64,000 nucleotides of DNA from contig CH464491.1 in assembly GCA_000002445.1 (NCBI GenBank), positions 224,001 through 288,000 of the forward strand, written 5' to 3'. Shown here piece by piece: positions 14,310-64,000 of this stretch. Source of the DNA: Trypanosoma brucei (lineage: Eukaryota). The notes below the pieces were generated by a model. It was given only the letters and a program-made list of their open reading frames with translations, ran no database searches and was not told the DNA's origin. Position numbers and translations under genes: made by a program. Position 1 is the first letter of the stretch. Every line of letters begins with the position of its first letter.

Positions 14310-14630
14310 GGCACTGGCCGGATGATGGGATGCCCGTTCGGATGCATAGTGCTTTCTGTAGCCTTTGCTACGTGTGCGTGGTGGAATTCTAGTTTTCTTT
14401 CGTGTTTTGCCGTAACGTCCGCTATGGTTTCGTATTTTTTGTTGTTGTGTCGTATGCGCCATTGCCTTTACCATGTTGGTGTCACTTTCATTGCTTATTG
14501 TTCTCTTCGCGTTTGTATTTGTTTCATTGTCTCAATTTGCGGAGGAATCACACAGACGCACACGTAACGTGGTGTGTGCTGGATTACTTGTCCCCAAGCA
14601 TTAGACAGTGGCGTCGTCTCAGTAGTAGGA

Positions 14631-16853
14631 ATGCCTCACAAGGAGGCTGAGGTCGGTACTCTCGGATTTAAGACTCCCGCGCGTAGGTCCAGATGCATCG
14701 GCGACCAGGGATTTCATTCGGCCACGAAGCCCTGGGTATCGCCCCATTCATTAGTTAAGGTGAGCCCTAGGTTAAGGGTCCCATCCACTTCTAGGTTACC
14801 TGCACTTGCGGAGGCTCCCGTATTTCCTCGTGCCCTTGTCCCATCCAAAGCGCTAGGTCCAGTTGCAATATCAAAGGCCCCCCTTGCGGCACAGTTGGAA
14901 GCTTTTGTGCGCCGTGAATATAAGATTTATTCCACCGGGAACCGCGATTGCACGCATGTGGACACCTTGCACATAGTGAGGGAGGCCTTTTCGGTCTTCC
15001 TGGAACACTTCTCAGAATATAGAGAGGTGCTATCTCTCATCCGCGACGAGTACGAGGCGGCATTCCAGGAGCTCCTTAGTGAGGTTAAGCGCCTCCGAGC
15101 TGTTGAGTTGGAGACAAGCAGTGACCGTAGTGTGCACGCGATGGAGATGTTAAAACAGCGGGAGGCCTTTAAGTCGATTGTTAGCAATCACTATGCTCAA
15201 CTTCAGGCAACTGAAGGGATAGTTCATTCCCTGCGCGACCAAATTACTTCGTATGAAGAGTCTAACGAAACGCTACGAGCCCAACTGAAGAAGGCGAAGG
15301 AAGAAACCCGGGAGGCTACGGATACATCCAAATTGTTAACAAAGTCCATGATTGAGGAGGCCGCTCGTAACTCTCAGCTCCTTGCGGCGCGCACGGCAAA
15401 TGAGAGGGAAATAGGTCGCTTGAAGGTTCAAGTGGATATGGTGAGGGAAGAACTGAAGGATGTGGAGAGCAGATACACCGCACTTTTGGAGAAAACACTA
15501 TGCACTGGTGGGCCGGATACGATTTTCAAGGGTAAAGACGTGCGAGCTAAGAAGAAACTTGATCAAGAATGCGAGCAGGAAGCGAAGAAGAAGCTTGAAG
15601 AATCTGAAGAGAATGCGAGACAGAAGGCATCTGAGGAGGAGGAAAGAAGGAATCGGGATAACGCTTACTTTGCTCTCATTAATGAGCGCATTGACGAATT
15701 ACTCCTCGAGCGGGAGCAGTTAAAGCAGCAGTTGGCTGACGCACTTGCGAGCCGTTGCGCTTCTGCCTGCGGTAGTGGTGGGGGTGGTCGGCCTGCAAGC
15801 ACCTCCCGCGCAAGAAGGTTCTCCGCAGATCCAGGAGCTCTGGAGAATGACCGACGACTTGTAGAGGGTGATGCCACCTACAGTAGGTTGATTGCTGCAT
15901 GGTTACGGGAGGAGCAGATGACGGGTGCTGAGTTAGACCGACTTGATGTGCTGATACCCCCTGGTGCGTCAGAGGATCATCCATTTGGGTTTTTAAAAGC
16001 TACCCTCCCCGTTCGAAATCGGTACCTGAAGAGGGAGGACACCATAGATATGTTGAACAGTTGGTGGGGGTTCCGGCGGAATTCGTTTGATTCGTCGATA
16101 AAACATCACTTTATGTGTTGGTTGCAAAAAACAACTGGATCTGAGTCAGGTGCGCAGGAATTAGGTGTGAACATAGTTCACGTCTGCGAGCACAACATTT
16201 ATGATCCCGATTGTCGTGCATTTCTCTTAATATTTCGAGAGTGTGTACCTGAAGACGTTGTTCATGCGTGGACGAAAGATATAGCGTATTTCGAGGAGCT
16301 ATGCCGTGAGTCTATGAGTGCTCACCGTTTCGTCCGCTGCTCAGTACTTTATGATAAACTCCGGAACAAATTACAAGAAAAGACGTATTTGAACATGCTA
16401 GAATTGCGCCTTTACCTCTGGCGTAACAGCGATGCGAATGGAATGATCTCCGTTGATTTTCTCTTTAGGAAAGACTCTCGCTTTCTGTACTTACTGAAGA
16501 AGCAGCTGCTCAGAGAGGTGGAGGAGTTCACTCTGCGGGTGGTTGAGGCAATTCGCTCAGTTGCCCTCGACGCAGATACCGTAAAGCTTCAAGATGTAGT
16601 AAACGCACTTAGCGCTCAGGATCCCGGTATTCCACAGGGCACGCTGCGCCGTCTGGTGGCGGAGGCAACTCAACTAACTTCTATGGATGTTGCTACGTGT
16701 GGAGTGGACTTCACCGTACGATTGCGGCCCCTTATCTACCGGTTCCGAAGCGCCGTTTTATTGAGGCGGGTAACGCCTCCTGTTGATACAAGTCAGCTGA
16801 ATCCAAATATATTTGACGCGAAGGCAATTGTTGAAGAAGCAGAGGAGGTGTAG
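14631..16853 (+). CDS. Hypothetical coiled-coil protein (about 740 aa). The first ATG is at 14631. The track start 14574 is GTG.
   Basis: The long ORF has a central heptad-like, charged segment (...LRAQLKKAKEETREATD...REIGRLKVQVDMVREELKDVESRYTALLEK...EEERRNRDNAYFALINERIDELLLEREQLKQQLAD...). A pyrimidine-rich leader at 14390-14570 lies upstream. Confidence 0.6.
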   Translation: MPHKEAEVGTLGFKTPARRSRCIGDQGFHSATKPWVSPHSLVKVSPRLRVPSTSRLPALAEAPVFPRALVPSKALGPVAISKAPLAAQLEAFVRREYKIYSTGNRDCTHVDTLHIVREAFSVFLEHFSEYREVLSLIRDEYEAAFQELLSEVKRLRAVELETSSDRSVHAMEMLKQREAFKSIVSNHYAQLQATEGIVHSLRDQITSYEESNETLRAQLKKAKEETREATDTSKLLTKSMIEEAARNSQLLAARTANEREIGRLKVQVDMVREELKDVESRYTALLEKTLCTGGPDTIFKGKDVRAKKKLDQECEQEAKKKLEESEENARQKASEEEERRNRDNAYFALINERIDELLLEREQLKQQLADALASRCASACGSGGGGRPASTSRARRFSADPGALENDRRLVEGDATYSRLIAAWLREEQMTGAELDRLDVLIPPGASEDHPFGFLKATLPVRNRYLKREDTIDMLNSWWGFRRNSFDSSIKHHFMCWLQKTTGSESGAQELGVNIVHVCEHNIYDPDCRAFLLIFRECVPEDVVHAWTKDIAYFEELCRESMSAHRFVRCSVLYDKLRNKLQEKTYLNMLELRLYLWRNSDANGMISVDFLFRKDSRFLYLLKKQLLREVEEFTLRVVEAIRSVALDADTVKLQDVVNALSAQDPGIPQGTLRRLVAEATQLTSMDVATCGVDFTVRLRPLIYRFRSAVLLRRVTPPVDTSQLNPNIFDAKAIVEEAEEV

Positions 16854-53177: not shown

Positions 53178-54815
53178 ATGACGAACAGAGAAAACACGTG
53201 GGTTCACGTTGGGGAATCGCCACTTTTTCAGTTTCGCGTCAAGAATATTACCACCATCTCTTTCATACGTCTTCAATGTAGTCCACGTGACGATGTCCTT
53301 ACCCCCTTGAAAGACAGTTGCATTACTCTCTGGGCAAAATATTCCCCTTATGTGAGGACTGCGGATGGTGTGCTCTGTGATCTTCCCCCGTATGTTGTTG
53401 CATCTTTCAGATTCGACGAGACGGGCGAGGCGGTTTCGTCGGCACTTGCGTGGGTGTTACAAGAGGGATCGGCTGTTACGATTTGTGTCGCAACTGACAC
53501 GGGTGTCCCGGAGGTTCTGAGAGACGATGCGGCGGAGAGGTCTGCTGCTGCGCCTTGGGCTGCGTCGTATGGGTTAGGATGTAACATCAGTGTTTCACTT
53601 TTTGGGACGGAAAAACTGAGGGACTACTACCTGTCATCTTGGAGGCCCCTGTTGGTCTACCGGTGGTTCGAGCTGAAGGATTGTGTTCGTGAGGCAACTA
53701 TTCTACCATCGCGGTACAGGGGTCCGCTAACACCAAACAGTACTTTAAAGTTTCGTAAACGCCGTTTTCTACACGGTGGTGTGCGGGAGGCTAAATGCAT
53801 TTCTTCATGTGGTAATTACGTGCTTTGGGCAGATGGAACCATGGGACCCGCTGGCGAGGTGGTTCCGTACTGGAGGCGATTTGCGCCAGCGAGGGTGGAC
53901 AAGCGTGTTCGAGTGCGCGCCTTTCCTCATCGTTTTGCTGACATTGTTGGTGAGGTGCCCTTCGGTTGCATGGTCGAAGCCATTGGCAAGAAGGTTGACC
54001 CCTCGACACGTGAGGAATACGTGTTGCTTGTCTTGGGGGTACTCCCAAACGCGGCGTCATTGGCTGAGGCGTATGAGTTAACATACATTGAAACTGGCAA
54101 GTGGATCTGGGGGTGGTCAAAAATTGCGACGAGGAACGGCATGGTCTTGTTGGTAGAGGTTAGCGACACGTGCGGTGCCACCGCCGAAGGCCAAATGTGG
54201 GTTGAACACTTGCCGGAACCCGCGTTTTACACATCGGCTAGTGACGACCGCCGCGTCCGTATCCGTCGGGGACCGTCGTTACATGACGACGTCGTTGGGC
54301 ATCTGGAGCGCAACGAGGTAAAACTAGCTGTCGCTTTGTGGCACCCCGTCGATGGAGCTATCTGCGGGGCGATCCCTTCGGAGGACGTAAATAACACAAA
54401 TAGTGATCATGGAGCGGGACCACGGGGTGAGAAAGTACCTCAGAGTGTTCTGCACCACTTTGTGGAGTGGGAAAGTGGGGGATTTTCGCTTTTGCGGAAC
54501 AACGACCGTGTCTACCTCGTCGCCGTAGAACTAAGAAAAGAACCGCGCCACTTTCCTGTTTGTCCTCGACCGGAGCCACAGTCTCCGGAAATCATATCCA
54601 TTTCAAGAAAGCGGGCGCGAGCGGAGTCCCCCGTTAGTGAAGCAAGCGAAAAAGCAAAAGCAGATGCACCCAGCTCGCAGTTATGGAGCCCCTCAATGCT
54701 ACCAGAAGCGGTTACTATGGGGCTGAAGTCCGGACGTGTGCGATTGGAGGATCTGCCAACCATTGAATCTGCCGGAGGATCATGTGGGTCATTATCTTCC
54801 TTTGAGGGTGACTAA
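53178..54815 (+). CDS. Hypothetical protein (545 aa).
   Basis: There is an ATG at 53178 after a polyY tract (53040-53120). It is a continuous ORF in the polycistron orientation. No family was recognised. Confidence 0.55.
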   Translation: MTNRENTWVHVGESPLFQFRVKNITTISFIRLQCSPRDDVLTPLKDSCITLWAKYSPYVRTADGVLCDLPPYVVASFRFDETGEAVSSALAWVLQEGSAVTICVATDTGVPEVLRDDAAERSAAAPWAASYGLGCNISVSLFGTEKLRDYYLSSWRPLLVYRWFELKDCVREATILPSRYRGPLTPNSTLKFRKRRFLHGGVREAKCISSCGNYVLWADGTMGPAGEVVPYWRRFAPARVDKRVRVRAFPHRFADIVGEVPFGCMVEAIGKKVDPSTREEYVLLVLGVLPNAASLAEAYELTYIETGKWIWGWSKIATRNGMVLLVEVSDTCGATAEGQMWVEHLPEPAFYTSASDDRRVRIRRGPSLHDDVVGHLERNEVKLAVALWHPVDGAICGAIPSEDVNNTNSDHGAGPRGEKVPQSVLHHFVEWESGGFSLLRNNDRVYLVAVELRKEPRHFPVCPRPEPQSPEIISISRKRARAESPVSEASEKAKADAPSSQLWSPSMLPEAVTMGLKSGRVRLEDLPTIESAGGSCGSLSSFEGD

Positions 54816-54925: not shown

Positions 54926-55197
54926 TCTAACTGCATCGTTACGCTGTGACCCAACAATCATCATCGGAAGGCGGATAAGTCGTACACTGCGTAGTGTGCA
55001 AAAACAAAACGAGAAAGAAGTAAAGTCATTCAAAAATAGTTTAAAAAATTTGCATTATCTCATAGCCAGTCTCAATTTCACAAAAAAGAAAGTAAAGAAA
55101 CAATTCAAGGGAATCAAAAAGAGAACGCAAGAAAATATAGAGACGATATTGACACGCAATACACTCGCAACGTCTTTGTGTGCGAGTCACCATAAAC

Positions 55198-58100
55198 ATG
55201 GCGTGTCAAGAGGTAAATAGTGAAGTTCCTGACAGCGATGTAGTTTTCCATGACACCATTTTTATGAGAAACAACAAACACGTCTCGGAGCAATGGATTC
55301 GTATTGGCGAATTGTACCCCAATGGTGCGAAGGAATCATTGCTCCCGGAGACGTTTGCACGCGAACAGTTCGGACAAGGAAGTCACTATGAGTGCTTCAT
55401 GCTTTCTGCCCTCGCCACTTTAGTAAAATTCCCCGACATCATTCGGAACTGCTTCGTGTCGAGGAATGTGCGGCGTGACGGGAGGTACACTTTTCAGTTC
55501 TTTCGTGACAAGGAATGGGTGAAGGTTGAAATTGATGACTCTGTTATGCTTGAGGATGATGAAGTTTTGTTCATCCGATCACCCACTAGTCATTGGTGGC
55601 CGCTACTGTTTGAGAAGGCTTATGCGAAATTCTACACCAGCTACGACAATTTGGAGGGTTGTACCTTACAGGAGGCGTACCATGACTTAACTGGCAACCC
55701 CGTGCTCAACATCCCCATGGACGCGAGGCTTGCCAAGGCTGCAGGTGTGGATGTGACTGGAGGTCAGTATTGGCTTGACCTCGCACAGAAGCTGCAATCC
55801 GGCCAGTTTGTTGGTTCGCTGCTGACGAGGGAAACGGACCTTGAGTCGATGGGTTTGCAGAGTGAGCAACAATACGGGATACTAGAGATTTTTTCGCTAA
55901 CTGGGACATCATCTGTAAGCGACATTGTGATTCACCTATACAACCCATTCGAGGACGAGGAATTCACGTACAAAGGCCCGCTGAACAGTAAGGACACGGA
56001 GTGGACCCCCAAACTCCGTGAAAAGTATAACGTGGATGATACGCACTCCATATTTCTTCCGCTACACGTTGCCCTGAAGATCGTAAATTCGGTGCAACTT
56101 TGCTACATATCCCCTATTGATGGTGACGCGACGTATTTTGATGATGAGTGGAAGGGTGAAACTGCGGGAGGGAACCCCACGAGTGTAACATGGCGCAAGA
56201 ACCCCCTATACTGCGTCAGGAACGCTGGGATCAACCCCGTGGAACTGGTTGTCGTGATTAAGCAGAAGGATCAACGTCATCTTTGGACATCAGAAGATGA
56301 TGAACTGATGTACAAAAGGTGTGGCATTGTTGTTGTTCAGAGTACCACAGTCACACAAATACCGACATATTTTGTAACAGGGAACAATCACAAAGCAATA
56401 CACAAGAGTTTGTTCCTAAACTCTCGTGAAGTGTCCAGTTTCGTTCGGATACCACCTAATTCCTTGTGCTACCTTGTACCTTCTTGCATGAAGAAGGGAG
56501 CGGAGAGTGCATTTACGCTCGCACTGTACCGGATGAAGCACCAAAATTATACGGAGTTCAATGTTAGTCGACTTGCTCTGCCGAAATTGCTGTGGCACAA
56601 TCCTATCCAAGAGAAACTCCAACTTCAAATGTTCACAAAGGATAGAAGGGATTTTTACGTCGATATACCCACTGACATTCACATTTTGATGCATCAAGAA
56701 AAACCGTTTGTAAGTGAGAAGACCGGTGGTGATGCTATGGTTCAGGATTACGTTGGTGTCTACCTTTATGATGACACGGACCGTAAGATTGGAGGTGTGC
56801 ACGCTGCGACGAATTTCAGGGAAACAAGTGTCTTGCATCGCCTTCCTCGTAGTGGTCGTTATGCTATTTCAATTACGTGTCCCCGGGCAAGTGGTGAAGT
56901 ACCCATTGCTCTCACAATTGTTGGTTCTCCTGATGCTAATGTTCGTATTGTTGAGGCTCCTGATGATGCCTCCATGTTTGATGATGAGGATGATATTGCA
57001 GAGGGTGATGAGGATGCTACTGTTTCTAATCCCATTGACTACATTCCTGTTGCTGGTGGAGGGCAGGTGTTCACTGAGGTACCCGATAGTACGGTCCCAT
57101 TTGAAGATAAACGTTTCATGGTTGATAATAAGATTATGACGAATGAACCGTGGATCCACATTGGTGACCTTTATCCTGAGGGAAAGACGCGCTCACTTTT
57201 GCCGGAGCGTCTGAGTCGTGAGCAGTTTGAGCAGGGTGAACACTTCGAGTGCTGTTGTCTGACCGCTTTTGCAGCGCTGGTGGAGCACCACCCCAACGTA
57301 ATTCGTGACGCGTTTGTGACGAAGGCTGTACGACGTGACGGACGGTACACGTTCCGGTTCCACCGCTACGGTCAGTGGGTGAAGGTGGAGATTGATGATC
57401 GTATTCCCCTTCTTGGTGGGAAAACTTTATTCTGTCGATCATCTGATGGTTATTGGTGGCCACTACTACTAGAGAAGGCGTATGCTAAGTTCTACACACT
57501 ATACCAAAATATTGAGGGATGTACGCTGCGGGAACTGTTTTACGACCTAACAGGGCTTCCTGTGCTTAGCATTCCGATGGAGTTGAAACTCGCGAAGGCT
57601 GTACTGTGTGATGTTGATGATGTGAGTTTTTGGGTTGAGCTCAGTGAGGGTCTGAAGGATTGTGCGTGTGCTGCCGTTGCACGCCCCGGTTTCGATGACA
57701 CCCTTGGTTTGTCCAATGGGCAAGAGTACGCTGTCCTTGATGTGGTATCGTTAACGGATGGTGAGGCCTCTTCCATATCTGATCTTGTTGTAAAACTTCA
57801 TAATCCGTTTCTGGAGACTGAGTACAAAGGCCCTATGAATGCAAGCGATGCTGCGTGGTCGTCTGAGCTGCGTACCCGTCTATGTCCGGAGCGACGGGAT
57901 ACTATCTACATTCCCGTGGAAGTTTTCTGCAATGCATTTCTCACTGTGGAGAAAGTTATGGTGCGTGGTCTTATTGTTCCCGGGTGGCAATTCAACAGTG
58001 AATGGGGTGAGGGCACGAACGGTGGCAATCCAACACTTGTGACGTGGCGTGAGAACCCCATTTACGTTGTGCAGAACACTGCGGATACCCCGTTACAGAT

Positions 58101-61100
58101 TATTGCAATGATTGGGCAACCTGATCAGCGTCGCGTGCTACACCTTCTCCCCGAGCAAGAGGTAAACTACGTTCAATGTGGGTTGTCGCTTGCCAAGAGT
58201 ATTAAGGGTGAATCGATCCCGACATACTTGCTGACACCCAATAGTCATGTTTTGATTCATAAGGGCCGTTTCTTTTCTTACCGTGAAGTAGCTGATGTTA
58301 TTGTTGTTCCGGGGAATAGCCTCACTTTTCTCGTTCCAAGCGCGATGTTTCGTGACAAAACGAAGTTTCTTCTCTCGTACTGGTACTCTAGTGCGAACGA
58401 CAGGAACAGTGTTACAATTGAGCGTCTTAATTTGGGTGTTGCGCGGCATCTTCCAGCCATTGCCCATCTCACTGTCAAAGAGAGGGTGAGGGAGCAAGTG
58501 GATTTTATTGTCGATGTTCCCACTGACGTTCATATCCTTCTTCGTCAAGAAAAACCCTGCCACGGTGACAGTGTTTCAAATGCCTTGACAGATGATTTTC
58601 TTGCCATGTATTTGTATAATTCTGAAGATGATCAACTCAGTGGTGTTGTGACCGCGACCAACTACAGGGAGATGGGAATAGTTCATCACCTCTCCGAAGG
58701 GGGGAGATATGTAATTTACGTTGTTTGCCCTCGTGCTGAGGGTGAGGTTCCTTTGAGAATAGAAATTGTCGCTATGCAGTCGGCCCAGGTTCGCACAGTG
58801 GAAGCATTACCCTTGTGCAAATCAATCTTGCAGGTGGAAAAAGAGCTAAAGCTGAGTACTGGGTCCTTGCCATACTCACCACTCCTTATAAGCGAAGGGG
58901 ATCTCAAAAATTTCTCGGGGCGACTATCGGACAACTCTATGCGGTTGGAGAGTTCCAGTGACCCTGACTTATCTTTCCTTGGAGCCGAGGTGGAAGGAAT
59001 TCCCACCCTGGATCTCACTCTGATGAGCGACTCTTCATTTTCTGAGATGGCACGTGAGCGCATGCAATTAAAGCGGGATCCCATTGCTAATGCGAGTCGT
59101 TTGGCTGAGGTTGAAGATAGTATGGTGGCACGTGCGAATGCTATTGCCAAGGAAATGCATTTGAGAGAGCGGCGATATCTGAACCCTGAGCCTGAGGGTG
59201 TCCCCCTTGAGTTGCTTCCTTTAAACGAGGACGAAGTTGTGAGTGAGAAGGAGGACCGCCTCCGTGCGCTGAATCGTAAGGAGCAGAAGGACGAGAAACT
59301 GTTACGGAGTCTTGAGGACGTGATAGCGGACCGTGTACACGAGATCGCGAGGGAGCTGAAGGTGAGTGAACGTGATCTGTTCCTTGATCCCACTCCAGGA
59401 GGTTTCCCTGTAGCGCAGCTTCCGCTGGACGAAGACGATGTGTTTCATTCACTCGAAGTGGAGCGACTGCAACTGCGACTGCGTCAGGATTCCCTTGCTA
59501 GCAAAGAAAGAATTGCTGAACTGGAAAACATGATGAATTGTAGGACTACGGAGCTCATCGACAAAATGAAAGAAGAGATTAGGAAGTTTCTTGACCCCAC
59601 CCCACTAGGAATACCACTTGAAGAACTAAAACTGGACGAACACGACAATTATGTTGCAAAAGAGATAAGCCTAATTGGAATGATAAGAAAAGGGAAAAAA
59701 GAATCACAGGAAGCAATTTCAATTCGGGAACAGTTACTTCAAATAGAATACGCTGTTGCCAAGGAACACTTAAACAACTTTAGGATACAGTACCTCGGAG
59801 ACGACATTGAGGGTCGCCAACCGAACGAATTAAACTTAGAAGAAGAAGAAACTTATATGCAGATGGAGAGAAAATTGATTGAATACTACAACAGTAATCA
59901 ACGTAACAGCGAAGAAGCGCAGAAAATAAGAGTAAATCTACTTCACAAAGCTACAAAAGCATCAAAGCATTTAAATCGATCCGAGAGAAAAAACTACATT
60001 AAGAGAGACAGACTCGAGATTTCAATATCAAACATTCCGCTTGATGACAACGAACAGTTCACAACATTAGAAGCGGAACGAATAAGAAAAAAAAGAAATA
60101 AAAAAAATTCAGAGGTTGAACAAATAGAAATGGAACTCAACAATATAGCACAACAGCTAGCTAAACTGAAAGCATCCGATAGCCGCAGCTTCCTTGATCC
60201 TATGCCAGAAGGAGTGCCGTTGAGTGAGCTTGAATTGGACAAGGATGAGAAGTTCAGCACCATGGAAGAGGAGCGTCGTAAGCTTATTGCTGAGGATCGT
60301 GAAGATAATGCAACACGCATTGCTGAATTAGAAGCAGCAATGAACGAGTATTCACATGAGCTTGCTAAACTGAAAGCATCCGATAGCCGCAGCTTCCTTG
60401 ATCCTATGCCAGAAGGAGTGCCGTTGAGTGAGCTTGAATTGGATAAGGATGAGAAGTTCAGCACCATGGAAGAGGAGCGTCGTAAGCTTATTGCTGAGGA
60501 TCGTGAAGGTAATGCTGCGCGCATTGCTGAATTAGAAGCAGCAATGAACGAGCATTCACATGAGCTTGCTAAACTGAAAGCATCCGATAGCCGCAGCTTC
60601 CTTGATCCTATGCCAGAAGGAGTGCCGTTGAGTGAGCTTGAATTGGATAAGGATGAGAAGTTCAGCACCATGGAAGAGGAGCGTCGTAAGCTTATTGCTG
60701 AGGATCGTGAAGATAATGCAACACGCATTGCTGAATTAGAAGCAGCAATGAACGAGTATTCACATGAGCTTGCTAAACTGAAAGCATCCGATAGCCGCAG
60801 CTTCCTTGATCCTATGCCAGAAGGAGTGCCGTTGAGTGAGCTTGAATTGGATAAGGATGAGAAGTTCAGCACCATGGAAGAGGAGCGTCGTAAGCTTATT
60901 GCTGAGGATCGTGAAGGTAATGCTGCACGCATTGCTGAACTAGAAGCTGCAATGAACGAGCATTCACATGAGCTTGCTAAACTGAAAGCATCCGATAGCC
61001 GCAGCTTCCTTGATCCTATGCCAGAAGGAGTGCCGTTGAGTGAGCTAGGATTGGATAAGGATGAGAAGTTCAGCACCATGGAAGAGGAGCGTCGTAAGCT

Positions 61101-64000
61101 TATTGCTGAGGATCGTGAAGGTAATGCAACACGCATTGCTGAATTAGAAGCAGCAATGAACGAGCATTCACATAAGCTTGCTAAACTGAAAGCATCCGAT
61201 AGCCGCAGCTTCCTTGATCCTATGCCAGAAGGAGTGCCGTTGAGTGAGCTTGAATTGGATAAGGATGAGAAGTTCAGCACCATGGAAGAGGAGCGTCGTA
61301 AGCTTATTGCTGAGGATCGTGAAGGTAATGCTGCACGCATTGCTGAACTAGAAGCTGCAATGAACGAGCATTCACATGAGCTTGCTAAACTGAAAGCATC
61401 CGATAGCCGCAGCTTCCTTGATCCTATGCCAGAAGGAGTGCCACTAAGTGAGCTTGAATTGGATAAGGATGAGAAGTTCAGCACCATGGAAGAGGAGCGT
61501 CGTAAGCTTATTGCTGAGGATCGTGAAGGTAATGCTGCACGCATTGCTGAATTAGAAGCAGCAATGAACGAGCATTCACATGAGCTTGCTAAACTGAAAG
61601 CATCCGATAGCCGCAGCTTCCTTGATCCTATGCCAGAAGGAGTGCCGTTGAGTGAGCTTGAATTGGACAAGGATGAGAAGTTCAGCACCATGGAAGAGGA
61701 GCGTCGTAAGCTTATTGCTGAGGATCGTGAAGGTAATGCTGCACGCATTGCTGAATTAGAAGCAGCAATGAACGAGCATTCACATGAGCTTGCTAAACTG
61801 AAAGCATCCGATAGCCGCAGCTTCCTTGATCCTATGCCAGAAGGAGTGCCGTTGAGTGAGCTTGAATTGGATAAGGATGAGAAGTTCAGCACCATGGAAG
61901 AGGAGCGTCGTAAGCTTATTGCTGAGGATCGTGAAGGTAATGCTGCACGCGTTGCTGAACTAGAAGCTGCAATGAACGAGCATTCACATGAGCTTGCTAA
62001 ACTGAAAGCATCCGATAGCCGCAGCTTCCTTGATCCTATGCCAGAAGGAGTGCCGTTGAGTGAGCTAGGATTGGATAAGGATGAGAAGTTCAGCACCATG
62101 GAAGAGGAGCGTCGTAAGCTTATTGCTGAGGATCGTGAAGGTAATGCTGCACGCATTGCTGAACTAGAAGCAGCAATGAACGAGCATTCACATGAGCTTG
62201 CTAAACTGAAAGCATCCGATAGCCGCAGCTTCCTTGATCCTATGCCAGAAGGAGTGCCGTTGAGTGAGCTTGAATTGGATAAGGATGAGAAGTTCAGCAC
62301 CATGGAAGAGGAGCGTCGTAAGCTCATTGCTGAGGATCGTGAAGGTAATGCTGCACGCATTGCTAGACTTGAGGAGAGGATGAACGAACTTTCCCGTGAA
62401 CTCGCAAGAATGAAGTTGAAGGATCGCAGCTTCCTTGATCCTATGCCAGAAGGAGTGCCACTAAGTGAGCTTGAATTGGATAAGGATGAGAAGTTCAGCA
62501 CCATGGAAGAGGAGCGTCGTAAGCTCATTGCTGAGGATCGTGAAGGTAATGCAACACGCATTGCTGAATTAGAAGCAGCTATGAACGAGCATTCACATGA
62601 GCTTGCTAAACTGAAAGCATCCGATAGCCGCAGCTTCCTTGATCCTATGCCAGAAGGAGTGCCGTTGAGTGAGCTTGAATTGGATAAGGATGAGAAGTTC
62701 AGCACCATGGAAGAGGAGCGTCGTAAGCTCATTGCTGAGGATCGTGAAGGTAATGCAACACGCATTGCTGAATTAGAAGCAGCAATGAGCGAGCATTCAC
62801 ATGAGCTTGCTAAACTGAAAGCATCCGATAGCCGCAGCTTCCTTGATCCTATGCCAGAAGGAGTGCCACTAAGTGAGCTTGAATTGGATAAGGATGAGAA
62901 GTTCAGCACCATGGAAGAGGAGCGTCGTAAGCTTATTGCTGAGGATCGTGAAGGTAATGCTGCACGCATTGCTGAACTAGAAGCAGCTATGAACGAGCAT
63001 TCACATGAGCTTGCTAAACTGAAAGCATCCGATAGCCGCAGCTTCCTTGATCCTATGCCAGAAGGAGTGCCGCTAAGTGAGCTTGAATTGGATAAGGATG
63101 AGAAGTTCAGCACCATGGAAGAGGAGCGTCGTAAGCTTATTGCCGAGGATCGTGAAGGTAATGCTGCACGCATTGCTGAACTAGAAGCAGCGATGAACGA
63201 GCATTCACATGAGCTTGCTAAACTGAAAGCATCCGATAGCCGCAGCTTCCTTGATCCTATGCCAGAAGGAGTGCCGTTGAGTGAGCTTGAATTGGACAAG
63301 GATGAGAAGTTCAGCACCATGGAAGAGGAGCGTCGTAAGCTTATTGCTGAGGATCGTGAAGGTAATGCTGCACGCATTGCTGAACTAGAAGCAGCAATGA
63401 ACGAGCATTCACATGAGCTTGCTAAACTGAAAGCATCCGATAGCCGCAGCTTCCTTGATCCTATGCCAGAAGGAGTGCCGTTGAGTGAGCTTGAATTGGA
63501 TAAGGATGAGAAGTTCAGCACCATGGAAGAGGAGCGTCGTAAGCTTATTGCTGAGGATCGTGAAGGTAATGCTGCACGCATTGCTGAACTAGAAGCAGCA
63601 ATGAACGAGCATTCACATGAGCTTGCTAAACTGAAAGCATCCGATAGCCGCAGCTTCCTTGATCCTATGCCAGAAGGAGTGCCGTTGAGTGAGCTAGGAT
63701 TGGATAAGGATGAGAAGTTCAGCACCATGGAAGAGGAGCGTCGTAAGCTTATTGCTGAGGATCGTGAAGGTAATGCAGCACGCATTGCTGAACTAGAAGC
63801 AGCAATGAACGAGCATTCACATGAGCTTGCTAAACTGAAAGCATCCGATAGCCGCAGCTTCCTTGATCCTATGCCAGAAGGAGTGCCGTTGAGTGAGCTT
63901 GAATTGGATAAGGATGAGAAGTTCAGCACCATGGAAGAGGAGCGTCGTAAGCTTATTGCTGAGGATCGTGAAGGTAATGCTGCACGCATTGCTGAATTAG
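55198..64000 (+). CDS. ClpGM6: Giant calpain-like protein with two tandem calpain-type cysteine-protease-like domains followed by a 68-aa (204-bp) tandem repeat array (ClpGM6 / GM6-antigen type). It is 5'-partial only in the sense that the ORF runs off the window end. More than 2,930 codons are open.
   Basis: It is not in the supplied ORF track (no stop in the window). There is an ATG at 55198 after an A-rich leader and polyY tract (54880-54925). I translated frame 1 from 55198 by hand and found no stop to 64000. The two homologous about 640-aa units begin ...WIRIGELYPNGAKESLLPE...QGSHYECFMLSAL...RDGRYTFQFF...WWPLLFEKAYAKFYTSY... and ...WIHIGDLYPEGKTRSLLPE...QGEHFECCCLTAF...RDGRYTFRFH...WWPLLLEKAYAKFYTLY.... 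These are the calpain domain II landmarks (QGxxGDCW -> QGxHxECx; WVxLLEKAYAK). Then come about 19 near-identical 68-aa repeats (...ELAKLKASDSRSFLDPMPEGVPLSELELDKDEKFSTMEEERRKLIAEDREGNAARIAELEAAMNEHSH...). Confidence 0.85.
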   Translation, partial: MACQEVNSEVPDSDVVFHDTIFMRNNKHVSEQWIRIGELYPNGAKESLLPETFAREQFGQGSHYECFMLSALATLVKFPDIIRNCFVSRNVRRDGRYTFQFFRDKEWVKVEIDDSVMLEDDEVLFIRSPTSHWWPLLFEKAYAKFYTSYDNLEGCTLQEAYHDLTGNPVLNIPMDARLAKAAGVDVTGGQYWLDLAQKLQSGQFVGSLLTRETDLESMGLQSEQQYGILEIFSLTGTSSVSDIVIHLYNPFEDEEFTYKGPLNSKDTEWTPKLREKYNVDDTHSIFLPLHVALKIVNSVQLCYISPIDGDATYFDDEWKGETAGGNPTSVTWRKNPLYCVRNAGINPVELVVVIKQKDQRHLWTSEDDELMYKRCGIVVVQSTTVTQIPTYFVTGNNHKAIHKSLFLNSREVSSFVRIPPNSLCYLVPSCMKKGAESAFTLALYRMKHQNYTEFNVSRLALPKLLWHNPIQEKLQLQMFTKDRRDFYVDIPTDIHILMHQEKPFVSEKTGGDAMVQDYVGVYLYDDTDRKIGGVHAATNFRETSVLHRLPRSGRYAISITCPRASGEVPIALTIVGSPDANVRIVEAPDDASMFDDEDDIAEGDEDATVSNPIDYIPVAGGGQVFTEVPDSTVPFEDKRFMVDNKIMTNEPWIHIGDLYPEGKTRSLLPERLSREQFEQGEHFECCCLTAFAALVEHHPNVIRDAFVTKAVRRDGRYTFRFHRYGQWVKVEIDDRIPLLGGKTLFCRSSDGYWWPLLLEKAYAKFYTLYQNIEGCTLRELFYDLTGLPVLSIPMELKLAKAVLCDVDDVSFWVELSEGLKDCACAAVARPGFDDTLGLSNGQEYAVLDVVSLTDGEASSISDLVVKLHNPFLETEYKGPMNASDAAWSSELRTRLCPERRDTIYIPVEVFCNAFLTVEKVMVRGLIVPGWQFNSEWGEGTNGGNPTLVTWRENPIYVVQNTADTPLQIIAMIGQPDQRRVLHLLPEQEVNYVQCGLSLAKSIKGESIPTYLLTPNSHVLIHKGRFFSYREVADVIVVPGNSLTFLVPSAMFRDKTKFLLSYWYSSANDRNSVTIERLNLGVARHLPAIAHLTVKERVREQVDFIVDVPTDVHILLRQEKPCHGDSVSNALTDDFLAMYLYNSEDDQLSGVVTATNYREMGIVHHLSEGGRYVIYVVCPRAEGEVPLRIEIVAMQSAQVRTVEALPLCKSILQVEKELKLSTGSLPYSPLLISEGDLKNFSGRLSDNSMRLESSSDPDLSFLGAEVEGIPTLDLTLMSDSSFSEMARERMQLKRDPIANASRLAEVEDSMVARANAIAKEMHLRERRYLNPEPEGVPLELLPLNEDEVVSEKEDRLRALNRKEQKDEKLLRSLEDVIADRVHEIARELKVSERDLFLDPTPGGFPVAQLPLDEDDVFHSLEVERLQLRLRQDSLASKERIAELENMMNCRTTELIDKMKEEIRKFLDPTPLGIPLEELKLDEHDNYVAKEISLIGMIRKGKKESQEAISIREQLLQIEYAVAKEHLNNFRIQYLGDDIEGRQPNELNLEEEETYMQMERKLIEYYNSNQRNSEEAQKIRVNLLHKATKASKHLNRSERKNYIKRDRLEISISNIPLDDNEQFTTLEAERIRKKRNKKNSEVEQIEMELNNIAQQLAKLKASDSRSFLDPMPEGVPLSELELDKDEKFSTMEEERRKLIAEDREDNATRIAELEAAMNEYSHELAKLKASDSRSFLDPMPEGVPLSELELDKDEKFSTMEEERRKLIAEDREGNAARIAELEAAMNEHSHELAKLKASDSRSFLDPMPEGVPLSELELDKDEKFSTMEEERRKLIAEDREDNATRIAELEAAMNEYSHELAKLKASDSRSFLDPMPEGVPLSELELDKDEKFSTMEEERRKLIAEDREGNAARIAELEAAMNEHSHELAKLKASDSRSFLDPMPEGVPLSELGLDKDEKFSTMEEERRKLIAEDREGNATRIAELEAAMNEHSHKLAKLKASDSRSFLDPMPEGVPLSELELDKDEKFSTMEEERRKLIAEDREGNAARIAELEAAMNEHSHELAKLKASDSRSFLDPMPEGVPLSELELDKDEKFSTMEEERRKLIAEDREGNAARIAELEAAMNEHSHELAKLKASDSRSFLDPMPEGVPLSELELDKDEKFSTMEEERRKLIAEDREGNAARIAELEAAMNEHSHELAKLKASDSRSFLDPMPEGVPLSELELDKDEKFSTMEEERRKLIAEDREGNAARVAELEAAMNEHSHELAKLKASDSRSFLDPMPEGVPLSELGLDKDEKFSTMEEERRKLIAEDREGNAARIAELEAAMNEHSHELAKLKASDSRSFLDPMPEGVPLSELELDKDEKFSTMEEERRKLIAEDREGNAARIARLEERMNELSRELARMKLKDRSFLDPMPEGVPLSELELDKDEKFSTMEEERRKLIAEDREGNATRIAELEAAMNEHSHELAKLKASDSRSFLDPMPEGVPLSELELDKDEKFSTMEEERRKLIAEDREGNATRIAELEAAMSEHSHELAKLKASDSRSFLDPMPEGVPLSELELDKDEKFSTMEEERRKLIAEDREGNAARIAELEAAMNEHSHELAKLKASDSRSFLDPMPEGVPLSELELDKDEKFSTMEEERRKLIAEDREGNAARIAELEAAMNEHSHELAKLKASDSRSFLDPMPEGVPLSELELDKDEKFSTMEEERRKLIAEDREGNAARIAELEAAMNEHSHELAKLKASDSRSFLDPMPEGVPLSELELDKDEKFSTMEEERRKLIAEDREGNAARIAELEAAMNEHSHELAKLKASDSRSFLDPMPEGVPLSELGLDKDEKFSTMEEERRKLIAEDREGNAARIAELEAAMNEHSHELAKLKASDSRSFLDPMPEGVPLSELELDKDEKFSTMEEERRKLIAEDREGNAARIAEL
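60150..64000 (+). repeat. A 204-bp (68-codon) tandem repeat array, about 19 copies in the window and continuing past the window end. It is in-frame coding sequence of the ClpGM6-like gene.
   Basis: The string cttgctaaactgaaagcatccgatagccgcagc recurs at 60361, 60565, 60769 ... 63823 with an exact spacing of 204 bp. One unit (about 62341-62541) is 201 bp and diverged. There are a few recurrent SNVs between units. Confidence 0.95.

What the first reader, a model, noticed from the sequence alone, without database searches (positions are those of the whole stretch)
62341..62541. One embedded divergent (201-bp, 67-codon) unit and SNV-defined unit subtypes inside an otherwise identical array
In the unit at about 62341-62541, AAMNEHSHELAKLKASDSRS (60 nt) is replaced by ERMNELSRELARMKLKDRS (57 nt). 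It is unlike any neighbour but reminiscent of the degenerate edge copies. Other units differ only at recurrent sites: EDNATR...EYSH (about 60298, about 60706), EGNATR (about 61117 with H->K, about 62548, and about 62746 with N->S), and ELELD->ELGLD (about 61040, 62060, 63690). These variants are usable as internal landmarks. In a collapsed or mis-assembled reference they would appear as copy-number and phase inconsistencies.
Basis: seen in the sequence. Interest (0 to 1): 0.5.

Follow-up and report, generated by a model that had tools for sequence, protein, structure and literature searches.

The report
Old variant unit inside ClpGM6 repeats
The region is the start of the known 68-amino-acid GM6 repeat array of the Trypanosoma brucei flagellum-attachment protein ClpGM6, and the odd 201-bp unit is a real, old variant repeat also found in two other T. 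brucei-group genomes, useful as an assembly landmark but otherwise ordinary.

Summary
Window 55198-64000 (+) encodes the first 2934 residues of T. b. brucei TREU927 XP_828202.1 (Tb11.57.0008) with no mismatch. That protein is the N-terminal fragment of ClpGM6, the GM6 antigen. From 60190 there are 18 full units of 204 bp and a partial one. Unit 11 (62230-62430) is 201 bp. A 60-nt tract (62365-62424) replaces 63 nt, and the rest of the unit differs from the consensus at one synonymous base.

The tract is not an error. It recurs at 60/60 nt in T. b. gambiense DAL972 and 59/60 nt in a PacBio assembly of T. b. equiperdum. It is saturated at synonymous sites against the canonical unit (pS about 0.95, pN about 0.28), so it is an old repeat lineage. 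No donor was found in the two neighbouring paralogues or in 40 family representatives. It is not closer to the edge copies than the canonical unit is.

The SNV subtypes are also real. The 56 departures from consensus fall on 19 sites, and 11 of 20 variants recur in both other genomes. This fits concerted evolution by unequal exchange and conversion.

Copy number and position differ: units 11, 52 and 54 in TREU927, and unit 57 of 78 in equiperdum. Whether position 11 is true needs long reads. Gene and array are already known, so interest is low.

The parts
55198..64000 (+). 5' part of the ClpGM6 ORF (Tb11.57.0008 / XP_828202.1). It is open to the end of the window.
   Evidence: Open frame from the stop at 55150. 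The 2934 residues are identical to the start of P0074, T. b. brucei TREU927 XP_828202.1. The antibody peptides KASDSRSFLDPMPE and ERRKLIAEDREGN of Hayes 2014 are present.
55198..58900 (+). Two calpain-like modules (Peptidase_C2 twice, plus Calpain_III).
   Evidence: Pfam PF00648 E=1.1e-70 in 2 stretches and PF01067 E=4.3e-7. In module 1, Cys and Asn align to the m-calpain catalytic residues but His does not.
58960..60189 (+). Degenerate DUF7623 repeats: about 5 full units, a partial one, and a transitional one that leads into the array.
   Evidence: Pfam PF24610 E=1.7e-68 in 5 stretches. HMM alignment of the edge units.
60190..64000 (+). GM6 array: units 1-18 complete and unit 19 partial, cut by the window end. 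Period 204 bp, 68 aa.
   Evidence: TRF; unit table; PF24610 E=6.8e-63 on units 10-12.
62230..62430 (+). Unit 11, the 201-bp, 67-codon variant unit (type 1).
   Evidence: Its first 135 nt equal the consensus except a synonymous T>C at 62325, which units 12 and 13 share.
62365..62424 (+). Divergent tract: 60 nt replacing 63 nt of the canonical unit. It encodes RLEERMNELSRELARMKLKD.
   Evidence: Alignment. Unique in the window. 59/60 nt in T. b. equiperdum at L001:11410-11469 and 60/60 nt in T. b. gambiense at L006:3431-3490. pS 0.95 and pN 0.28 against the core.
60190..60393 (+). Unit 1, subtype EDNATR...EYSH. Unit 3 (60598-60801) is the same subtype.
   Evidence: 116G>A, 123T>A, 124G>A, 139C>T, 160C>T.
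61006..61209 (+). Unit 5, ELGLD plus EGNATR plus E->K. Units 10 (62026-62229) and 18 (63655-63858) share ELGLD.
   Evidence: 42T>A, 44A>G, 123T>A, 124G>A, 169G>A.
62431..62838 (+). Units 12 and 13, EGNATR subtype with 96T>C. Unit 13 also has N->S.
61822..62025 (+). Unit 9, with I->V (130A>G).

Best explanation
This is the 5' third of the GM6 repeat array of T. brucei TREU927 ClpGM6. [quoted passage not shown]

The array evolves in concert. Unequal sister-chromatid or allelic exchange and short-tract gene conversion keep units nearly identical. These processes also shuffle a small stock of old unit polymorphisms, which are the SNV subtypes.

Unit 11 is a mosaic. Its first 135 nt and last 6 nt have been homogenised with the neighbouring units. 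A 60-nt tract from a deeply diverged repeat lineage has survived between them.

Inferred: the tract persists because about 46% mismatch blocks heteroduplex formation and short conversion tracts. It could then be lost or copied only as part of a whole unit.

It is present in 1-3 copies in every T. brucei-group array examined, so it predates their separation.

At the protein level the tract stays in the C-terminal third of the unit's long helix. It removes one residue, changes net charge from about -2 to +2, and removes the HSH and SDS motifs. No distinct function is shown for it.
For: Identity of the gene:
- 2934/2934 residues match XP_828202.1.
- The antibody peptides match and the gene structure is as described by Hayes 2014.
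- Pillay 2013 counts 60 repeats in Tb11.57.0008, as seen in P0074.

The tract is real and old:
- It is found at 59/60 and 60/60 nt in PacBio equiperdum and Sanger gambiense assemblies.
- About 11.5 of 12.2 synonymous sites differ from the core, while 14 of 24 residues are kept. This pattern indicates long purifying selection on a separate lineage, not a mutational burst.

The unit is a mosaic:
- In each genome the 5' part of the variant unit carries that genome's local SNVs. These are 30A/31C/33A with or without 42A/44G in equiperdum and gambiense, and 96C in the window. The tract itself is constant.

Concerted evolution:
- 56 departures from consensus fall on 19 sites.
- 11 of 20 variants are shared with both other arrays (hypergeometric about 1e-13), at very different frequencies. 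For example, 31C is in 4 of 17 units here and in all 56 and 47 units there.
- Units flanking the landmark number 10 | at least 8 here, 56 | 21 in equiperdum, and at least 16 | at least 31 in gambiense.

No present-day donor:
- Nothing longer than 13 nt matches in about 71 kb of the equiperdum locus, which includes both tandem paralogues.
- The best protein match is 13 of 21 residues among 40 family representatives and all T. brucei-group members in hand.

Structure:
- A single-sequence AF2 model gives one helix of about 50 residues per unit plus a linker of about 16 residues.
- The helix of the variant unit is intact, with pLDDT 85-94.
Against: - The in-situ relic reading is an inference. A donor elsewhere in the T. 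brucei genome was not excluded, because only the locus and clustered protein libraries could be searched.
- The tract is not closer than the canonical tract to repeats of other species, so an 'ancestral state' cannot be shown.
- Persistence of a 1-3 copy variant in a rapidly turning-over array could instead mean selection.
- The order of units in TREU927 comes from an assembly that is broken inside this array (PMC4121973). DNA of the rest of the TREU927 array could not be fetched.
- The homogeneous core of the PacBio assembly may be partly smoothed by polishing, and it carries many 1-nt deletions.
Confidence: 0.62

Rival explanations
1. The variant unit is real, but its place at unit 11 is an artefact of the TREU927 assembly, as may be its count of three in the reference. 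Possible causes are a collapse, a chimera of the two haplotypes, or 3'-proximal reads joined to the 5' edge.
For: - Hayes 2014 report that the array is split between Tb11.57.0008 and Tb11.47.0036 and is probably collapsed.
- In the long-read equiperdum array the unit occurs once, at unit 57 of 78, which is 21 units from the 3' end.
- TREU927 also has copies at units 52 and 54, close to the same relative place.
- Units 11-13 carry 96C and 123A/124A. In equiperdum 96C lies only in the 3' quarter of the array and 123A/124A only in its 3' third. In the gambiense piece 96C lies near the 3' end, while 123A/124A is mostly in the 3' half but also occurs in its first four units.
- DAL972 and the Illumina T. 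equiperdum OVI assembly both mis-handle this locus.
Against: - Unit 11 is not a plain duplicate of units 52 and 54, because it has E where they have D at residue 35.
- The whole window array is in frame, with coherent subtypes.
- The 5' edge is anchored in unique sequence.
- Arrays clearly differ between strains, so a different position is not in itself suspicious.
Confidence: 0.25
2. The tract was imported fairly recently by ectopic, short-tract gene conversion from another DUF7623 repeat. The donor could be one of the two tandem paralogues or another calpain-like gene. T. brucei builds mosaic VSG genes in a comparable way.
For: - Both boundaries are sharp, and the tract length of about 60 nt is typical of a conversion tract.
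- Conversion between ClpGM6 and the downstream paralogue does occur. A 540-nt block (58959-59498) is 99.4-99.8% identical, inside a region that is 91% identical overall.
Against: - No donor was found. The best nucleotide matches are 9-13 nt in L002, L005, L007 and L008, which cover both paralogues completely in equiperdum.
- The best protein match is 13 of 21 residues and 36 of 63 nt.
- The tract is already present in three lineages, so any import predates their split.
Confidence: 0.07
3. The variant unit is kept by selection because it does something the canonical units cannot. It could be a unique docking, hinge or processing site that marks a position along the ClpGM6 rod.
For: - It is retained in all three genomes despite large changes in the number of flanking units.
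- pN is well below pS, so the tract evolved as coding sequence.
- The charge reverses, and the His and Ser motifs and one residue are lost (sequence).
Against: - Copy number (1 or 3) and position are not conserved.
- 60 nt conserved among subspecies that are about 99.6-99.8% identical is not informative about selection.
- A second, unrelated divergent type exists near the 3' end. This suggests that variant units simply accumulate toward array ends.
- There are no functional data.
Confidence: 0.06

Closest known systems
T. brucei ClpGM6 / GM6 antigen (Tb11.57.0008 plus Tb11.47.0036; Muller 1992 as cited in PMC4121973; Hayes 2014, PMC4121973)
   Same: It is this gene. The protein is identical to XP_828202.1. 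It has the 68-aa GM6 repeats, calpain-like domains without a complete catalytic triad, and the published antibody peptides.
   Different: Nothing differs at the gene level. The papers read here (PMC4121973, PMC3808341) describe the repeats only as 'near-perfect' or '90-100% identical', and they do not mention the 67-residue variant unit.
T. cruzi H49 / FRA / JL7 / Ag1 68-aa repeats in calpain-like proteins. The names are from my own knowledge. The sequences seen here are P0003, P0004, P0044 and P0051.
   Same: Orthologous architecture: calpain-like N-terminus followed by DUF7623 repeats with a 68-aa period, and a flagellum-attachment location.
   Different: The repeat sequence differs (IAALEESMNARAQELAREKKLADRAFLD), matching 12 of 21 residues of the variant tract. 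The internal heterogeneity of those arrays was not examined.
Concerted evolution of tandem arrays with divergent units toward the ends (unequal-exchange models; rDNA and satellite arrays; named from general knowledge)
   Same: - A homogeneous core with more variant units near both ends. In equiperdum, units 5-47 are nearly uniform and units 48-78 are heterogeneous.
- Shared unit polymorphisms occur at shifting frequencies.
   Different: This array is coding and stays in frame. The variant tract keeps the helical repeat pattern, and it sits inside the array rather than at the very edge.
Giant repetitive FAZ proteins FAZ10 and FLAM3 (PMC5358337, PMC4541047; titles and abstracts only)
   Same: Very large repeat-containing FAZ proteins whose arrays are hard to assemble.
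   Different: They belong to unrelated repeat families. No comparison was run.

Membership tests
ClpGM6 (T. brucei GM6 antigen gene) | Sequence identity with the reference gene product | tested here: met
   2934/2934 residues identical to XP_828202.1 / EAN79090.1, T. b. brucei TREU927.
ClpGM6 (T. brucei GM6 antigen gene) | Central core of near-identical 68-aa GM6 repeats that contain the peptides used to raise anti-ClpGM6 | tested here: met
   204-bp period, 18.9 copies in the window. KASDSRSFLDPMPE and ERRKLIAEDREGN are present in the canonical units. Unit 11 lacks the first peptide.
ClpGM6 (T. brucei GM6 antigen gene) | Calpain-like domains flanking the repeats at both ends | tested here: met
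   N-terminal Peptidase_C2 twice in the window. The C-terminal Peptidase_C2 follows the array in equiperdum L001 and in P0010 and P0079. It lies outside the window.
ClpGM6 (T. brucei GM6 antigen gene) | [quoted passage not shown] | not testable with these tools
   Taken from Hayes 2014 (PMC4121973).
Pfam DUF7623 (PF24610) | Score above the gathering threshold | tested here: met
   209.1 bits on units 10-12, in 3 stretches that include the variant unit. 227.1 bits on the degenerate repeats. The cut-off is 27.
Active calpain protease (Peptidase_C2) | Cys-His-Asn catalytic triad | tested here: not met
   In the alignment to m-calpain 1kfu_L, Cys (QGSHYEC) and Asn (YNPF) are aligned. The His of GHAYS has no His opposite it. 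This agrees with Hayes 2014. Only module 1 was checked.
Tandem array under concerted evolution | Units more alike within a genome than between genomes, with shared polymorphic sites | tested here: met
   Variant frequencies differ strongly between the three arrays, while 11 of 20 variants are shared.
Tandem array under concerted evolution | Higher-order periodicity or similarity between neighbouring units | tested here: not met
   No lag stands out, and the lag-1 permutation test gives p=0.16 in the window. Protein data suggest a 2-unit duplication (variant unit plus EGNATR unit) at units 52-55.

The most novel reading that the evidence does not exclude
The 67-residue unit is a selectively maintained module in the ClpGM6 rod that is distinct from the canonical units. 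It would act as a unique binding or hinge site. Its position relative to the two ends, together with the unit counts on either side, would tune flagellum-attachment-zone architecture and differ between T. brucei lineages.
Probability: 0.06. Interest if true: 0.5.

Novelty: already known. Interest (0 to 1): 0.2.

Why it matters
The main value is practical. GM6 repeats are a serodiagnostic antigen, and ClpGM6 level sets FAZ length and cell form. Yet the array is broken or collapsed in reference genomes.

The variant unit and the SNV subtypes give fixed points for checking long-read assemblies. They also allow unit counts to be made on each side of a landmark, and arrays or haplotypes to be compared between strains. 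SmlI, BpuEI and Hpy166II cut only in the variant tract within the window's array, which allows a simple Southern test.

As biology, it is a small, clean example of a deeply diverged tract surviving inside a strongly homogenised coding array.

Tried and rejected
1. 'Ancestral or edge-like relic'. I expected the tract to resemble repeats of other species or the degenerate edges more than the core does. Scoring against 75 non-core repeats showed the opposite: 71.6 against 86.8 bits, Wilcoxon p about 1e-3.

2. Donor search. No donor was found in:
   - the window;
   - gambiense L002 and L006 outside the GM6 units;
   - equiperdum paralogues 2 and 3;
   - 40 representatives from an exhaustive HMMER search with the 40-aa tract.

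3. The type-1 and type-2 variant tracts are not related, because they use different codons.

4. The search for homologous proteins missed exact relatives. The search with units 10-12 returned only two proteins. The TREU927 protein came from the listing of cluster members instead.

5. The look-up of P0074 DNA failed because it is not on record. Units 20-61 of TREU927 are therefore known only as protein.

7. The T. equiperdum OVI Illumina contig (L003) leaves ClpGM6 at window position 59498 and gives no array.

8. No higher-order periodicity or neighbour similarity was found in the window.

9. The AF2 model has pTM 0.22, so only its secondary structure was used.


Full report
**What is at the coordinates**

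Tandem Repeats Finder reports one array at 60155-64000, with period 204, 18.9 copies and 96% matches. The array lies in an open reading frame that starts at the ATG at 55198 and runs off the end of the window.

With units phased on TTCCTTGATCC (FLDP), starts fall at 60190 and every 204 bp after that. The exception is unit 11 (62230-62430), which is 201 bp.

Aligned to the consensus, unit 11 is identical over its first 135 nt except for a synonymous T>C at 62325. A tract at 62365-62424 then replaces 63 nt with 60 nt, with 29 differing columns. The last 6 nt are identical again. In protein terms, IAELEAAMNEHSHELAKLKASDSRS becomes IARLEERMNELSRELARMKLKDRS. The tract has no other copy in the window on either strand.

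- The change in unit 5 is E->K, not H->K.
- An I->V in unit 9 and several synonymous variants were missed.

The 17 canonical full units vary at 19 sites. The 56 departures from consensus fall on those 19 sites, where random placement would give about 49. I found no higher-order period and no significant neighbour similarity (p=0.16).

**Identity**

The ORF has two Peptidase_C2 modules with Calpain_III, then DUF7623 (PF24610) repeats. The two peptides used by Hayes et al. to raise anti-ClpGM6 occur in the canonical unit (PMC4121973).

All 2934 residues encoded here are identical to the start of XP_828202.1 / EAN79090.1 of T. b. brucei TREU927 (P0074, 5795 aa). This is Tb11.57.0008, the N-terminal fragment of ClpGM6.

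Hayes et al. state three relevant points. This fragment ends inside a repeat. The reference has probably collapsed the array. Southern blots indicate at least 55 repeats that are 90-100% identical to each other. Pillay et al. count 60 repeats (PMC3808341), as seen in P0074.

In calpain module 1, Cys and Asn align with the catalytic residues of m-calpain but His does not. This agrees with the published view that the protein is not an active protease.

**Is the variant unit real?**

Yes. Three independent assemblies carry it:
- **T. b. equiperdum IVM-t1 (PacBio, GCA_003543875.1).** It holds the complete locus, joined from L004 and L001. There are 78 units between the same 5' and 3' flanks. The tract occurs once, in unit 57, at 59/60 nt.
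- **T. b. gambiense DAL972.** The annotated gene is collapsed to 3 units, 100 N and 5 units. An unannotated piece of at least 49 units at FN554974.1:298769-308666 holds the tract once, at 60/60 nt.
- **TREU927.** Beyond the window, the reference protein carries the same 67-residue unit twice more, at units 52 and 54. Both have E35D, and all three copies are followed by an EGNATR unit.

**How old is it, and where did it come from?**

Against the canonical tract, about 11.5 of 12.2 synonymous sites differ (pS about 0.95), while pN is about 0.28 and 14 of 24 residues are kept. That pattern marks a long-separated coding lineage, not a burst of errors.

In each genome the 5' part of the variant unit carries that genome's local SNVs, while the tract stays constant. 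The unit is therefore a mosaic whose flanks have been homogenised.

I looked for a donor and found none:
- Nothing longer than 13 nt matches in the two tandem DUF7623/calpain paralogues downstream, which L008 and L007 cover completely in equiperdum, or in the gambiense loci.
- An exhaustive HMMER search with the 40-aa tract returned 40 family members. The best match is 13 of 21 residues, in a paralogue repeat that is only 36 of 63 nt identical.

I first thought the tract looked ancestral. Scoring against 75 non-core repeats from seven species and the paralogues showed the canonical tract is actually closer to the family. The edge repeats match both tracts about equally. I favour an in-situ relic over an old import, as an inference.

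**The SNV subtypes**

Eleven of the 20 window variants (same site, same base) occur in at least two units of both the equiperdum and gambiense arrays (hypergeometric about 1e-13). Several variants that are minor here are the majority there.

The number of units on either side of the variant unit also differs:

| Genome | Units 5' of the variant unit | Units 3' of it |
|---|---|---|
| Window (TREU927) | 10 | at least 8 |
| T. b. equiperdum | 56 | 21 |
| T. b. gambiense piece | at least 16 | at least 31 |

Equiperdum shows a uniform core (units 5-47) and a heterogeneous 3' third. That third includes a second, unrelated variant type, IGRLERKMGRRVDKLAKLKASYSRS. The same type is present near the 3' end in gambiense and TREU927.

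All this fits concerted evolution by unequal exchange and conversion acting on old unit polymorphisms.

**Protein view**

A single-sequence AlphaFold model of units 10-12 gives one helix of about 50 residues and a linker of about 16 residues per unit. The variant tract forms the C-terminal third of its helix and remains helical, with pLDDT 85-94. pTM is 0.22, so nothing beyond secondary structure is claimed.

The tract loses one residue, shifts net charge from about -2 to +2, and loses the HSH and SDS motifs and the first antibody epitope. No function is shown for it.

**What remains open**

The unit is real, but its position and count in TREU927 are not verified. Four observations point to a possible assembly artefact:
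- The array is interrupted by an assembly gap.
- The other two genomes have a single copy far from the 5' edge.
- Units 11-13 carry markers (96C, 123A/124A) that lie mainly in the 3' part of the other arrays. The gambiense piece also has 123A/124A in its first four units.
- TREU927 has further copies at units 52 and 54, close to the equiperdum position.

Against an artefact, unit 11 differs from units 52 and 54 at residue 35. I put about 0.25 on position 11 being artefactual. TREU927 DNA beyond the window was not on record. Long reads, or a Southern blot with SmlI or BpuEI, which cut only in the tract, would settle it.

**Verdict**

This is a known gene and a known array. The variant unit is a genuine, conserved, low-copy landmark and a tidy example of a diverged tract surviving homogenisation. 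It is useful for assembly checking and strain comparison, but it is not a new kind of feature.

Noticed in passing
L006:1-9898 (T. b. gambiense DAL972 FN554974.1:298769-308666): At least 49 in-frame GM6 units with no gene called. They end in a 100-N gap and are followed by the C-terminal fragment of a different DUF7623/calpain gene (P0056). In the long-read equiperdum assembly the matching place (L007, L008) has no GM6 units. The piece therefore looks like the missing ClpGM6 core, mis-scaffolded about 36 kb downstream.
   Followed up: yes
window 58959-59498, compared with L002:20269-20808 and L005:19671-20210: The ClpGM6 N-terminal region is a mosaic against the next gene downstream, a giant calpain/DUF7623 paralogue. 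Identity is 91% over 55222-58709, but a 540-nt block reaches 99.4-99.8% and ends sharply at 59498. This suggests conversion between the paralogues. The Illumina T. equiperdum OVI contig (L003) stops matching ClpGM6 at exactly that point.
   Followed up: partly
L001:13312-13515, 14332-14532 and 15145-15347; P0010 residues 137-204; P0079 unit 5: A second, unrelated divergent unit type (IGRLERKMGRRVDKLAKLKASYSRS; ICRLERK... in TREU927) recurs near the 3' end of the array in equiperdum (3 copies), gambiense and TREU927. It uses different codons from the type-1 tract.
   Followed up: partly
CM010682.1:250562-321420 (L004, L001, L005, L008, L007): Three tandem calpain/DUF7623 genes lie in a row on chromosome 11: ClpGM6, then two giant paralogues with degenerate, non-homogenised 68-aa repeats, then radial spoke 3 and Vps18 genes. 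Only ClpGM6 has a homogenised array. In the PacBio annotation all three are broken into many fragments by 1-nt indels.
   Followed up: partly
window 59994-63989 (-): A 1331-aa antisense ORF spans the array. It is most likely a by-product of a repeat unit that has no stop codon in that reverse frame. No evidence of a gene was sought.
   Followed up: no
window 1-64000: Of the 25 ORFs of at least 200 aa, 21 are on the + strand, as expected for one kinetoplastid polycistronic unit. The 545-aa product of 53178-54815, just upstream of ClpGM6, has no Pfam hit on record for its identical copy in T. equiperdum OVI.
   Followed up: no
window 59650-60150: The last two degenerate repeats before the array are A-rich and Lys/Asn/Glu-rich, including AAGAAAAAAAAGAAATAAAAAAAA at about 60085-60108. 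They have lost the FLDP..PEG.P motif, unlike the corresponding repeats of the paralogue.
   Followed up: no
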